The position numbers and the translations under genes are program-made. Below the pieces are notes generated by a model that was not told the DNA's origin, ran no database searches, and saw only the letters and a program-made list of their open reading frames with translations. 23,639 nucleotides of DNA from a virus. Its lineage: Duplodnaviria; Heunggongvirae; Uroviricota; Caudoviricetes. The stretch lies in the IMG/VR virus record IMGVR_UViG_2874945390_000005; one strand, given 5' to 3'. Shown here piece after piece: positions 13,338-14,488 of this stretch (position 1 is its first letter; the number at the start of each line of letters is the position of its first letter).

Positions 13338-13458
13338 ACTCACAGGATGATATCAATAACCTTGCAGGGAGGCTATTTTATTTCCTTTTTCAGCGAAAAA
13401 TCTCCGAGAACCCTCGCCCAATGCGGGCGGGGAGCAGTCGCAATCAAGTGAGCCATAA

Positions 13459-13629
13459 ATGAACAAAGACAAATCCTTGACACAACAAGTGGAAGAAATA
13501 CTTAGCAAGCAAAAAGTTAGCGAGCAAGGAAAAATGATTCAATCATTAAAGAACATGGGCTTAATCAACAAGCCTGTTTTTACTTTGGCTTATGGACCAG
13601 ATATTACAACCTGCCAAATGCACCAATAA
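13459..13629 (+). CDS. Candidate small ORF (56 aa) downstream of cI
   Basis: ATG at 13459; the stop at 13627-13629 abuts a terminator hairpin; the RBS is weak (GTGAG). Confidence 0.3.
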   Translation: MNKDKSLTQQVEEILSKQKVSEQGKMIQSLKNMGLINKPVFTLAYGPDITTCQMHQ

Positions 13630-13630
13630 C

Positions 13631-13660
13631 AAAACCCGGCCTTGGTGCCGGGTTTTGTTT
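13631..13660. terminator. Bidirectional rho-independent terminator shared by the cI transcript and hicAB
   Basis: aaaa-cccggc-cttggt-gccggg-ttttgttt: 6-bp GC stem with an A-run upstream and a T-run downstream. Confidence 0.6.
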
Positions 13661-13743
13661 GCCTCCTGCTCGCCCCACCATTTACCAGTGCGCCGTAAAT
13701 TCTCCATTCTTCGGCGGTGAGGATGTCAAAGACGAAGGGAACA

Positions 13744-14088
13744 TTAAGCCCCTGTGTGATGGTTGACTTCTTTTTCCAGCGCCTTATTAACAAAGGCGTT
13801 CAGTGATAAATCTTCTTCCATCGCCATTTCAGCGACCCGACGATGCAGTTCTGGATCAAGTCTGACGTTAAACACACCTTTAAACGGGGTATCAGGCTCC
13901 TTTCCATCCTCCACACAAGACTGTAAATACAGCTCAACCGATGTCTTAAACTCCTGTTCCAGTTCAGCTAATGTAGAAGCCTCATAAGTTACCAGGTCTC
14001 GAATAAACGCCAGTTTTCCGTACAGGATATTATTTTCAAAATCTGGTTCTACTGTACCTAAATATCCTTTATATTTTAGATGATTCAT
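13744..14088 (-). CDS. hicB: HicB-family antitoxin (N-terminal HicB fold plus C-terminal ribbon-helix-helix)
   Basis: MNHLKYKGYLGTVEPDFENNILYGKLAFIRDLVTYEASTLAELEQEF...FKGVFNVRLDPELHRRVAEMAMEEDLSLNAFVNKALEKEV. ATG overlaps the hicA stop (ATGA). Confidence 0.8.
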   Translation of the reverse strand: MNHLKYKGYLGTVEPDFENNILYGKLAFIRDLVTYEASTLAELEQEFKTSVELYLQSCVEDGKEPDTPFKGVFNVRLDPELHRRVAEMAMEEDLSLNAFVNKALEKEVNHHTGA

Positions 14089-14339
14089 AATACCCCAGCC
14101 TCTTTCAGATTCTGTTTAATCGCTTTCAGCGTTCCACCTTTAATATAACTTTCTGGATGTGGGCGATGCATTAATATGGTGTGGTTGATTTCAGCATTGA
14201 AAAACCGCACTCTTGAGCCCTGCATTTCCTTTTTGACATATCCCAGAGAGGAAAACAAAACGACCAACTCATCCCATTCAAACGTTTTTTTACTGTTTAA
14301 AAACTTTTCCAGTAGCTTATCTGCTTTCCCCATACCCAC
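14085..14339 (-). CDS. hicA: HicA-family toxin (mRNA interferase)
   Basis: ...FEWDELVVLFSSLGYVKKEMQGSRVRFFNAEINHTILMHRPHPESYIKGGTLKAIKQNLKEAGVL (YcfA/HicA-like). Start is GTG at 14339 or ATG at 14333. Confidence 0.8.
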   Translation of the reverse strand: MGMGKADKLLEKFLNSKKTFEWDELVVLFSSLGYVKKEMQGSRVRFFNAEINHTILMHRPHPESYIKGGTLKAIKQNLKEAGVL

Positions 14340-14368
14340 ATAATCTCATCTTCGCTACATTGCAACTA

Positions 14369-14397
14369 ATTATAGTTACAGGCGATGTTTTTGTCAA
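14369..14397 (-). promoter_or_regulatory. Sigma70 consensus promoter for hicAB (-35 TTGACA, 17-bp spacer, -10 TATAAT) with an overlapping imperfect palindrome
   Basis: Minus strand reads TTGACAaaaacatcgcctgtaacTATAAT. The -10 lies within the imperfect palindrome tgtaactataattagttgca, a possible autoregulatory operator. Confidence 0.5.
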
Positions 14398-14488
14398 AAG
14401 CCACCAAGCCCGCTGGGTTCTCTTTGACTGTTCACTGCTTTTCTTAGTGTTATCAGGGGGTTCCCTCACACCAAATCTAACACAGAGT

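What the first reader, a model, noticed from the sequence alone, without database searches (positions are those of the whole stretch)
13338..14400. hicAB-type toxin-antitoxin pair in the slot lambda uses for rexAB, with a textbook promoter
Between the cI stop and the rightward operon, where lambda carries rexA-rexB, this element carries a convergent toxin-first HicA/HicB pair with overlapping stop and start. Its promoter matches the sigma70 consensus exactly (TTGACA, 17 bp, TATAAT) and overlaps an imperfect palindrome suited to HicB autoregulation. A small cI-co-oriented ORF and a bidirectional terminator separate it from cI. A toxin-antitoxin pair here could act as a prophage-encoded abortive-infection or exclusion module, but that is inference.
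Basis: partly seen in the sequence, partly recalled or inferred. Interest (0 to 1): 0.5.

Follow-up and report, generated by a model that had tools for sequence, protein, structure and literature searches.

The report
HicAB toxin-antitoxin cassette beside prophage repressor
This is an ordinary, already-annotated HicA/HicB toxin-antitoxin gene pair with its own strong self-repressed promoter, sitting as mobile cargo next to the repressor gene of a decayed lambda-like prophage; whether it protects against other phages is untested.

Summary
hicA (14085-14333, -) and hicB (13744-14088, -) overlap by 4 nt. They match Pfam HicA_toxin and HicB and PHROG moron families. Their models fold like solved HicA and HicB. 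They are under strong purifying selection. The promoter is an exact TTGACA-17-TATAAT. A 20-bp palindrome lies over the -10, and its consensus recurs upstream of hicA in 36 of 53 other species and in no shuffled control.

HicA is identical to a RefSeq-annotated protein. The pair is about 91% identical in DNA to the hicAB of 31-35 kb IncX4-type plasmids. A published test of an IncX4 hicAB with overlapping genes showed toxicity and neutralisation. I did not compare that tested sequence with this window directly.

- The small ORF is an orphaned gene from a different cargo module (protease plus 56-aa protein).
- The right edge carries a stub of a Panacea-type pair.
- The host prophage is IS-riddled and defective.
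- HicA has Arg where characterised HicAs have the catalytic His, as does the founding H. influenzae HicA.

The slot between cI and the early-left operon is a cargo hotspot. A related phage carries a type II restriction-modification system there. A defence role is plausible but unsupported by any data. Verdict: already known, low interest.

The parts
14085..14333 (-). hicA toxin gene, 82 aa. An in-frame GTG at 14339 is an unlikely alternative start.
   Evidence: Pfam HicA_toxin 1.2e-11. phrog_8887 9e-35. AF2 model pLDDT 89.9; best PDB matches are the HicA structures 1WHZ, 6G26_E/F and 4C26. Protein identical to WP_000513533.1. dN/dS 0.06. The ATG start is conserved in plasmid copies that lack the GTG.
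13744..14088 (-). hicB antitoxin gene, 114 aa. The N-terminal part has a partial RNase-H-like HicA-binding fold. The C-terminal part is a ribbon-helix-helix DNA-binding domain. The start overlaps the hicA stop (ATGA).
   Evidence: Pfam PF05534 7.4e-20. phrog_9151 1.5e-50 and Arc-like repressor PHROGs on residues 72-112. AF2 pLDDT 90.8; best PDB matches are 6G26_A/B, 2DSY and 6G1C (rmsd 1.6 A over 61 columns). 59-61% identical to H. influenzae HicB. dN/dS 0.04-0.07.
14369..14397 (-). P_hicAB, a sigma-70 promoter: TTGACA, 17 nt, TATAAT, matching 12 of 12 positions.
   Evidence: The -35 and -10 hexamers are invariant between the prophage and plasmid copies. The same TTGAC-17-(-10) layout occurs in Photorhabdus, Salmonella and Xenorhabdus homologues.
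14361..14380 (.). Putative HicB operator, the imperfect palindrome TGTAACTA-TAAT-TAGTTGCA centred on the -10.
   Evidence: at most 1 mismatch to the consensus in 36 of 53 independent loci, against 0 of 1060 shuffles. It occurs only once in the window. Binding by HicB is inferred, by analogy with B. pseudomallei HicB, which binds a palindrome over its -10 (PMC11594946).
13628..13665 (.). Bidirectional intrinsic terminator shared by orf56 (+ strand) and hicAB (- strand).
   Evidence: -21.2 and -22.9 kcal/mol, z -4.76 and -4.56. The GC-rich 13-bp stem is followed by a U-tract on both strands. It belongs to the orf56 homology block 13446-13679.
13446..13629 (+). Orphaned remnant of a different cargo module: the last 13 nt of an SDH/ClpP-like protease gene plus the intact 56-aa ORF (13459-13629).
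   Evidence: The ORF normally abuts a 300-aa PF01972 protease gene directly downstream of cI in hundreds of lambda/P22-like prophages that have no hicAB. Homology begins at 13446. dN/dS 0.11-0.17. phrog_28875, unknown function.
14428..14516 (+). Stub of the gene paired with a SocA/Panacea-domain antitoxin gene (last 66 nt, 14428-14493), plus its intrinsic terminator (14489-14516). This is phage backbone, not part of hicAB.
   Evidence: L013 6657-6722 and L004 4001-4066 align here. There is a 16-bp microhomology (14428-14443) at the junction. Terminator evidence.
12618..13337 (+). cI-type repressor gene (HTH_3 plus Peptidase_S24), the upstream neighbour that defines the slot.
   Evidence: Annotated as a LexA family protein in strain 48, with the 720-nt gene in the same position and arrangement.

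Best explanation
This is a self-contained type II HicAB toxin-antitoxin operon. It belongs to the H. influenzae-type subfamily, which has overlapping genes and a HicB with a C-terminal ribbon-helix-helix domain (Gerdes class 4; 'HicA-O-B' in PMC11878559). It is carried as a roughly 0.75-kb moron in the variable cargo slot between cI and the early-left operon of a defective lambdoid, Stx-phage-like prophage.

Proposed mechanism:
- A consensus sigma-70 promoter drives hicA-hicB as one transcript, which ends at the neighbour's bidirectional terminator.
- hicB translation is coupled to hicA through the ATGA overlap.
- The HicB N-terminal domain binds HicA and masks it.
- HicA is a small protein with a dsRBD-like fold. 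It is presumed to be a ribosome-independent mRNA-cleaving toxin.
- HicB RHH dimers bind the TGyAACTA-N4-TAGTyrCA palindrome over the -10 and shut the strong promoter down. This is classic TA autoregulation.

What is shown: the genes, folds, promoter, conserved operator, modular boundaries and purifying selection.

What is taken from the literature: toxicity and neutralisation, tested on an IncX4 overlapping-gene hicAB.

What is inferred: RNase chemistry, HicB-operator binding, and the biological role. My ranking of the role is:
1. Lysogen-expressed abortive-infection or exclusion cargo (about 35%).
2. Addiction, or a selfish hitch-hiker.
For: - Family and fold.
- HicA protein identical to a RefSeq-annotated HicA, with the same cassette in 8 complete E. 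coli chromosomes.
- About 91% DNA identity over 13735-14399 to the hicAB of 31-35 kb conjugative TaxC/MOBP plasmids (792 plasmid records).
- An IncX4 overlapping-gene HicA is toxic and is neutralised by its HicB: PMC11878559, Fig. 5D text.
- Exact promoter.
- Operator conservation.
- A palindrome over the -10 is bound by the RHH HicB of B. pseudomallei: PMC11594946.
- dN/dS 0.04-0.07.
- Independent module boundaries, with different neighbours on each side in L002, L013, L003 and the window.
- Slot is a cargo hotspot. Phage Lyz12581Vzw carries a type II R-M system plus a Panacea pair there. Many lambdoid prophages carry the SDH-protease plus orf56 pair. KY204 carries a TM protein, hicAB and a Panacea pair..
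Against: - There are no functional data for this copy.
- I did not compare the sequence of the experimentally tested plasmid (p14EC007a/pJIE143) with the window directly. pJIE143 is not in the held collection. The link rests on the paper's statement that IncX4 overlapping-gene hicAB pairs are highly similar.
- HicA has Arg (R41) where B. pseudomallei His24 aligns, so the catalytic mechanism cannot simply be transferred.
- PADLOC has no model hit.
- A prophage HicAB in P. putida was a working TA with no defence or stability phenotype (PMC12894663).
- The IncX4 HicAB gave little or no plasmid-maintenance benefit.
- The host prophage is decaying, so retention here could be recent history rather than function.
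Confidence: 0.85

Rival explanations
1. Addiction or stabilisation module. HicAB penalises loss of the prophage region through post-segregational HicA activation. This would help this piece of a decaying prophage, and IncX4-type plasmids, to persist. It would not be a defence against other phages.
For: The same cassette is common on conjugative plasmids (792 records). It is intact in an otherwise IS-riddled prophage. IncX4 hicAB gave a small competitive advantage, 3:1 at generation 80 (PMC11878559).
Against: [quoted passage not shown] P. putida prophage HicAB2 did not affect prophage stability. The IncI2 HicB tested in PMC11878559, from the other subfamily, was stable in lysates, which argues against classic antitoxin-decay killing.
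Confidence: 0.25
2. Selfish hitch-hiker with no benefit to host or prophage. In this view the compact promoter-plus-two-gene unit spreads by recombination between plasmids and phage cargo slots.
For: The unit is sharply bounded, 13681-14443 against L013 and 13735-14399 against the plasmids. It is flanked by stubs of other modules and by a 16-bp microhomology junction. It is rare on chromosomes: 41 places, of which 8 are full cassettes, in 5426 genomes.
Against: Strong purifying selection on both genes and conservation of the operator show that a working TA is maintained. They do not distinguish selfish from beneficial maintenance. The slot is occupied by bona fide defence cargo in relatives.
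Confidence: 0.25
3. Inactive relic. The pair is decaying along with the defective prophage, and HicA is non-toxic because it lacks the canonical catalytic histidine.
For: R41 replaces the His that aligns with B. pseudomallei H24. The prophage has a truncated helicase, a split recT and many IS elements.
Against: Arg at that position is the subfamily norm: 109 of 131 diverse sequences in the alignment (130 representatives plus the window), and H. influenzae HicA as well. H56 and H59 are near-invariant. An IncX4 member of the overlapping-gene subfamily is reported to be toxic. Both ORFs are full length, HicA is identical to the protein in 8 other genomes, dN/dS is about 0.05, and the promoter and operator are intact.
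Confidence: 0.05

Closest known systems
HicAB of IncX4 plasmids (pJIE143 / p14EC007a; the 'HicA-O-B' overlapping-gene subfamily of PMC11878559)
   Same: HicA is 95% and HicB 94% identical to the commonest clusters. DNA is about 91% identical from the -35 to just past the hicB stop. The 4-nt gene overlap is the same. The -35, -10 and palindrome are identical. There is no internal terminator. The plasmid pair is reported to be toxic and neutralising.
   Different: The location differs: a prophage cI-adjacent slot rather than beside taxC/ddp1 on a conjugative plasmid. The window has 7 extra nt in the 5'UTR, and its HicB is one residue shorter (114 versus 115 aa). Identity to the exact tested plasmid sequence was not checked.
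Haemophilus influenzae HicAB, the founding hicAB locus
   Same: It is the same subfamily. HicA is 59% identical over its full length, with the same GSRVRF and H(K/R)PHP motifs. HicB is 59-61% identical. The genes overlap.
   Different: It is chromosomal, next to the pilus cluster, and not in a prophage. Its upstream palindrome is degenerate, with 4 mismatches to the consensus.
Burkholderia pseudomallei HicAB (PDB 6G26, 4C26, 6G1C)
   Same: It is among the best structural matches for both proteins. Its HicB is also RHH-type and binds a single palindrome overlapping the -10 (PMC11594946). It is also phage- or island-borne.
   Different: Sequence identity is only 10-24%. Its HicA uses His24 in a GSH motif, where this HicA has invariant Arg41. 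Its HicA lacks the extra N-terminal helix (61-66 aa versus 82 aa).
Lambda rexA-rexB, and other cargo of the repressor-adjacent slot
   Same: The position is the same: downstream of cI and upstream of the early-left operon. Like rexAB it is presumably expressed in the lysogen, although expression was not tested here. The slot is variable among relatives and holds defence genes: an R-M system in Lyz12581Vzw and a Panacea pair.
   Different: There is no homology to RexA or RexB. hicAB is convergent to cI and has its own promoter, whereas rexAB is co-transcribed from pRM. A protection phenotype has not been tested.

Membership tests
HicAB type II toxin-antitoxin system | [quoted passage not shown] | tested here: met
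   Pfam 45 bits against a cut-off of 27. The model has pLDDT 89.9 with H-E-H-E-E-E-E-H topology, and its best PDB matches are HicA structures with probability 1.00.
HicAB type II toxin-antitoxin system | Antitoxin HicB with an N-terminal partial RNase-H-like fold | tested here: met
   The model has pLDDT 90.8, with residues 1-60 forming beta strands followed by a long helix. Matches: 6G26 HicB (probability 1.00), 2DSY, and 6G1C, the N-terminal domain of BpHicB, at rmsd 1.6 A.
HicAB type II toxin-antitoxin system | HicB C-terminal DNA-binding domain (RHH in class 4) | tested here: met
   PF05534 on residues 54-104. Arc-like repressor PHROGs on residues 72-112. Weak CopG RHH match 9kkd, E=0.05. 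The model shows two helices after the FNVR strand segment.
HicAB type II toxin-antitoxin system | Toxin gene first, with closely linked or overlapping genes in one operon | tested here: met
   hicA lies upstream and overlaps hicB by 4 nt (ATGA). There is no promoter-like site inside hicA.
HicAB type II toxin-antitoxin system | Palindromic operator in the promoter, for HicB autorepression | tested here: met
   The sequence element is present and conserved. Actual HicB binding cannot be tested here.
HicAB type II toxin-antitoxin system | HicA is toxic and is neutralised by cognate HicB | not testable with these tools
   Reported for an IncX4 overlapping-gene homologue (PMC11878559). Not measured for this copy.
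Characterised HicA branch (E. coli, Yersinia, Burkholderia) | Catalytic His in the G-S-(x)-H motif on strand beta-2 | tested here: not met
   The profile alignment puts invariant R41 opposite BpHicA residue 24. Arg is present in 109 of 131 aligned subfamily sequences, H56 in 128 and H59 in 131. H. influenzae HicA also has GSR. This is therefore a member of the H. influenzae-type branch, not the His24 branch.
Known anti-phage defence systems (PADLOC catalogue; abortive-infection TA) | Match to a catalogued defence-system model | tested here: not met
   No PADLOC hit for HicA, HicB or orf56 at E up to 0.01.
Known anti-phage defence systems (PADLOC catalogue; abortive-infection TA) | Located among defence genes or in a variable hotspot | tested here: met
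   The same slot holds a type II R-M system plus a Panacea pair, or the SDH-protease pair, in relatives.
Known anti-phage defence systems (PADLOC catalogue; abortive-infection TA) | Reduces plaquing or the burst of some phage | not testable with these tools
   No data. The reviews state that no HicAB has been shown to defend against phage (PMC11594946). A tested prophage HicAB was negative (PMC12894663).
Lambda RexAB | Homology to RexA or RexB | tested here: not met
   Pfam assigns the two ORFs to HicA and HicB only. The resemblance is positional only.
Phage moron (independent transcription unit inserted between backbone genes) | Own promoter and terminator, and present or absent among otherwise related phages | tested here: met
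   Promoter. Terminator. The cassette is absent from Lyz12581Vzw and from the deposited phage genomes. It is present in 8 E. coli prophages with different neighbours. The PHROG category is 'moron'.

The most novel reading that the evidence does not exclude
The pair is a lysogen-expressed abortive-infection module that guards the repressor-adjacent slot. That would be the first HicAB shown to defend against phage. Its toxin would use a rearranged active site. The canonical beta-2 histidine is replaced by invariant Arg41. The near-invariant His56, which by the model's strand register should pair with residue 41 on the neighbouring strand, would take over catalysis.
Probability: 0.25. Interest if true: 0.45.

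Novelty: already known. Interest (0 to 1): 0.2.

Why it matters
It matters little beyond annotation. The finding documents that the hicAB cassette common on IncX4-type resistance plasmids also sits in the repressor-adjacent cargo slot of Stx-phage-like prophages. That illustrates traffic of a compact promoter-plus-two-gene unit between plasmids and phages.

Two by-products may be useful to people who work on HicAB:
- A clear operator consensus, TGYRACTA-N4-TAGTYRCA, conserved across phyla for the H. influenzae-type subfamily.
- The observation that this whole subfamily lacks the histidine mutated in every mechanistic study so far.

If hicAB were shown to exclude phages from this slot, it would fill the acknowledged gap that no HicAB has a demonstrated defence role.

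Tried and rejected
- PDB sequence searches with single proteins and with profiles gave nothing significant: best E=0.3 for HicA and 0.05-0.12 for a CopG RHH. The fold search was needed instead.
- PADLOC gave no hits for HicA, HicB, orf56, the SDH protease or the Panacea pair.
- NCBIfam gave no HicA model hit, and only a sub-threshold YlcI/YnfO hit for the HicB C-terminus.
- The deposited phage genomes (INPHARED) contain no near match to the cassette, only the backbone piece 14428-14540. tblastn of orf56 found nothing.
- The repeat finder with a 6-nt seed missed the palindrome. A custom scan found it.
- An exact 50-mer across the hicAB/backbone junction had no match in the species-representative genomes, so the source organism was not pinned down. 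The IS load suggests Shigella or E. coli.
- pJIE143 (JN194214) is not in the plasmid collection.
- A search for cI operator repeats shared between the cI-cro intergenic region and 13338-15300 found no shared 9-mer. The position of pL (candidate 14627-14656) therefore remains inferred.
- I considered whether HicB might also regulate prophage genes. The operator motif occurs only once in the window, so I rejected this.
- I considered orf56 as a third component of the TA. I rejected this because it travels with a protease gene in hundreds of prophages that have no hicAB.
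Full report
**1. What is there**

- On the minus strand, an ORF at 14085-14339 (GTG start) is followed by an ORF at 13744-14088. The downstream ATG overlaps the upstream TGA by four bases.
- Pfam assigns the first ORF to HicA_toxin (E=1.2e-11, 45 bits, cut-off 27) and the second to HicB PF05534 (E=7.4e-20, 71 bits, cut-off 21).
- PHROGs has full-length families for both, in its 'moron' category: phrog_8887 'toxin' at 9e-35 and phrog_9151 'HicB-like antitoxin' at 1.5e-50.
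- RefSeq annotates the same two genes as HicA-family toxin and HicB-family antitoxin in eight complete E. coli chromosomes at 97-98.5% DNA identity.
- The window's HicA is identical in sequence to WP_000513533.1.
- The likely hicA start is the ATG at 14333, giving 82 aa. The GTG lies in a 7-nt stretch that the plasmid copies lack, whereas ATG-GGG-AAA is conserved.

**2. Promoter, operator and terminator**

- TTGACA, 17 nt and TATAAT lie on the minus strand at 14397-14369, matching 12 of 12 positions.
- With one mismatch allowed, only 0.13 such sites are expected in the whole window. This is the only exact one.
- The -10 sits in the centre of a 20-bp imperfect palindrome, TGTAACTA-TAAT-TAGTTGCA, at 14380-14361.
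- In an alignment with the copy on a 31-kb plasmid, the -35 and the whole palindrome are invariant. The middle of the spacer and the 5'UTR have diverged.
- Homologues from Photorhabdus, Salmonella and Xenorhabdus (HicA 71-76% identical) have unalignable flanks. They keep TTGAC, a 17-nt spacer, and a -10 embedded in the same inverted repeat.
- I then scored the consensus TGYRACTA-N4-TAGTYRCA in the 140 nt upstream of hicA in 53 species-representative loci fetched independently. Of these, 36 have at most one mismatch, including Bacteroidales and Bacillota MAGs. None of 1060 shuffled controls does.
- The motif occurs only once in the window.
- This is good comparative evidence for a subfamily-wide operator. 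That HicB is the protein that binds it is inferred. The inference rests on its RHH domain and on B. pseudomallei HicB, which binds a single palindrome over its -10 (PMC11594946).
- Downstream of hicB, the hairpin at 13628-13659 folds at -21.2 kcal/mol on the + strand and -22.9 on the - strand. A U-tract follows in both directions.

**3. Proteins**

- Sequence searches of the PDB were uninformative.
- The AlphaFold models are confident: HicA pLDDT 89.9 and HicB pLDDT 90.8.
- The HicA model's best PDB matches are the HicA structures 1WHZ, 6G26 chains E/F and 4C26.
- The HicB model's best matches are B. pseudomallei HicB (6G26 chains A/B), TTHA0281 (2DSY) and the isolated HicB N-terminal domain 6G1C, at rmsd 1.6 A.
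- HicB residues 72-112 hit Arc-like RHH repressor families. The pair therefore fits Gerdes's class 4, hicAB with an RHH-type HicB (PMC10865869).
- Both genes are under strong purifying selection, with dN/dS 0.04-0.07 against the plasmid copy and a second prophage copy.

**4. One real difference from the textbook HicA**

- The profile alignment to B. pseudomallei HicA anchors on G-S and P-H-P. It places invariant Arg41 opposite the catalytic His24.
- In a mafft alignment of 131 sequences (130 diverse representatives at 31-56% identity, plus the window), the motif is G-S-R (109 of 131), then F, then H56 (128 of 131), a K or R, P, H59 (131 of 131) and P.
- The founding H. influenzae HicA has the same GSRVRF and HKPHP motifs.
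- The beta-2 histidine therefore defines the E. coli/Yersinia/Burkholderia branch, not the family as a whole.
- In the model's strand register (strands 41-46 and 51-56), residue 56 should pair with residue 41. His56 is therefore a candidate replacement for the missing histidine. This is inference only, because I had no access to the model's coordinates.

**5. Where the cassette came from and what surrounds it**

BLAST against the fetched loci defines four blocks.

(a) 13446-13679
- This block comprises 13 nt of the 3' end of an SDH/ClpP-like protease gene, the 56-aa ORF and the bidirectional terminator.
- In about 500 collection blocks, this ORF directly abuts a 300-aa PF01972 protease gene just downstream of cI in lambda/P22-like prophages that have no hicAB.
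- The 'small ORF' is therefore an orphaned half of another cargo module. It is not a spacer and not a third TA component.

(b) 13681-14443
- This is the hicAB unit as shared with prophage KY204.
- The core shared with the plasmids is 13735-14399. That runs from the -35 to nine bases past the hicB stop.

(c) 14428-14493
- This is the last 66 nt of the gene paired with a SocA/Panacea-domain gene. That pair is present in KY204 and in phage Lyz12581Vzw.
- It is followed by that pair's terminator at 14489-14516.
- A 16-bp microhomology (14428-14443) marks the deletion junction.

(d) Phage backbone
- isrK (14998-15074) and a C4 antisense RNA (15099-15186) precede a Rha-family gene.

The plasmid relatives number 792 PLSDB records, of which 780 are conjugative. 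Most are 31-35 kb with TaxC/MOBP backbones, and some are IncI2.

**6. The slot**

- In the related Stx2a phage Lyz12581Vzw, the interval between cI and the same backbone point carries a type II methyltransferase and restriction enzyme. Both give strong PADLOC hits. It also carries the Panacea pair.
- In E. coli 2015C-3121 the interval carries a TM protein, the SDH protease, orf56 and hicAB.
- In KY204 it carries a TM protein, hicAB and the Panacea pair.
- Unlike rexAB, hicAB is convergent to cI and has its own promoter.

**7. Function**

- For the overlapping-gene IncX4 subfamily, PMC11878559 reports that HicA from p14EC007a is toxic and fully neutralised by HicB. It also reports similar hicA and hicB mRNA levels, and only a 3:1 competitive advantage at generation 80.
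- I could not compare those exact sequences with the window.
- On defence, reviews state that no HicAB has been shown to protect against phage.
- A prophage-borne HicAB2 in P. putida is a potent TA with no effect on prophage stability or on plaquing (PMC12894663).
- PADLOC has no model for these proteins.
- Gerdes already notes hicAB loci in Shigella MGEs and defence islands (PMC10865869).
- The TA mechanism is therefore well supported, and the biological role remains open.

**8. Host element**

The window is a defective lambdoid prophage.
- It contains several IS3-family elements and one IS630-like element.
- The replication helicase is truncated.
- recT is split by an IS copy identical to another one in the window.
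- Intact hicAB, cI and cro in such a relic fit either a maintained function or recent decay.

**9. Verdict**

The object is a known, annotated member of a known family in a known kind of location. The modest additions are the operator consensus, the subfamily-wide absence of the canonical histidine, and the patchwork history of the slot. Interest is 0.2.

Noticed in passing
window 14998-15186 (+), with the gene at 15281-15880 (+): Rfam finds isrK (14998-15074, 61.6 bits) and a C4 antisense RNA (15099-15186, 78.6 bits) in tandem. They lie directly upstream of a Rha-family regulator or antirepressor gene. This looks like a P1 immI-like or Gifsy-1 isrK-like RNA-controlled antirepressor module at the head of the early-left operon. 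No N-like gene was seen.
   Followed up: partly
window 2051-2134 (-), with the gene at 1354-2136 (-): A second RNA of the C4 clan (sRNA-Xcc1, 78 bits) overlaps the annotated 5' end of an ORF6N / P22_AR_C antirepressor-like ORF. The window may therefore hold two RNA-antirepressor modules.
   Followed up: no
window 13446-13629 (+); loci L005-L012 at 4098-5171: A two-gene unit lies immediately downstream of cI in hundreds of lambda/P22-like prophages (about 500 collection blocks). It comprises a 300-aa SDH/ClpP-like serine protease (PF01972) and an abutting 56-aa protein. It has no PADLOC hit, and both of its PHROG families are 'unknown function'. Only the 56-aa half survives in this window.
   Followed up: partly
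window 14428-14516 (+); L013 5872-6722; L004 3216-4066: This is a stub (the last 66 nt plus the terminator) of the partner gene of a SocA/Panacea-domain pair. Related prophages carry the whole pair in the same slot. A 16-bp microhomology (14428-14443) marks the deletion junction.
   Followed up: partly
window 2733-3518, 5178-6083, 6364-7573, 8719-9875, 17440-18596, 20380-21584: The prophage is heavily degraded. It holds five IS3-family elements or fragments: one has an ALIL frameshift pseudoknot at 6645-6761, and two are copies with identical Pfam hit profiles, one of which splits recT. It also holds an IS630-like DDE_3 element. The DEAD-box replication helicase is truncated, at 371 aa against a 1521-nt gene in strain 48.
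   Followed up: partly
HicA residues 39-60 (window 14154-14219, -): The whole H. influenzae-type HicA subfamily has G-S-R where characterised HicAs have the catalytic G-S-H. It also has near-invariant H56 and H59 in an H-(K/R)-P-H-P motif. I did not find this discussed in the HicAB review or in the Gerdes survey.
   Followed up: partly
loci L032-L063 (Acinetobacter spp.): In most Acinetobacter homologues the conserved palindrome lies about 72 nt upstream of hicA, rather than about 35-45 nt. At least one locus (L019) has a second, weaker copy near -30 (GACTA-TACT-TAGTC). This suggests a two-operator or two-promoter layout in that clade.
   Followed up: no
window 13338-13445 (+): This is the 108-nt stretch between the cI stop and the orf56 block. 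The first 40 nt or so are shared with other cI 3' flanks. The remainder (13380-13445) did not match the other fetched loci outside the close relatives H1-H3. It contains a weak hairpin followed by UUUUU (around 13345-13391) that might attenuate read-through from cI.
   Followed up: no
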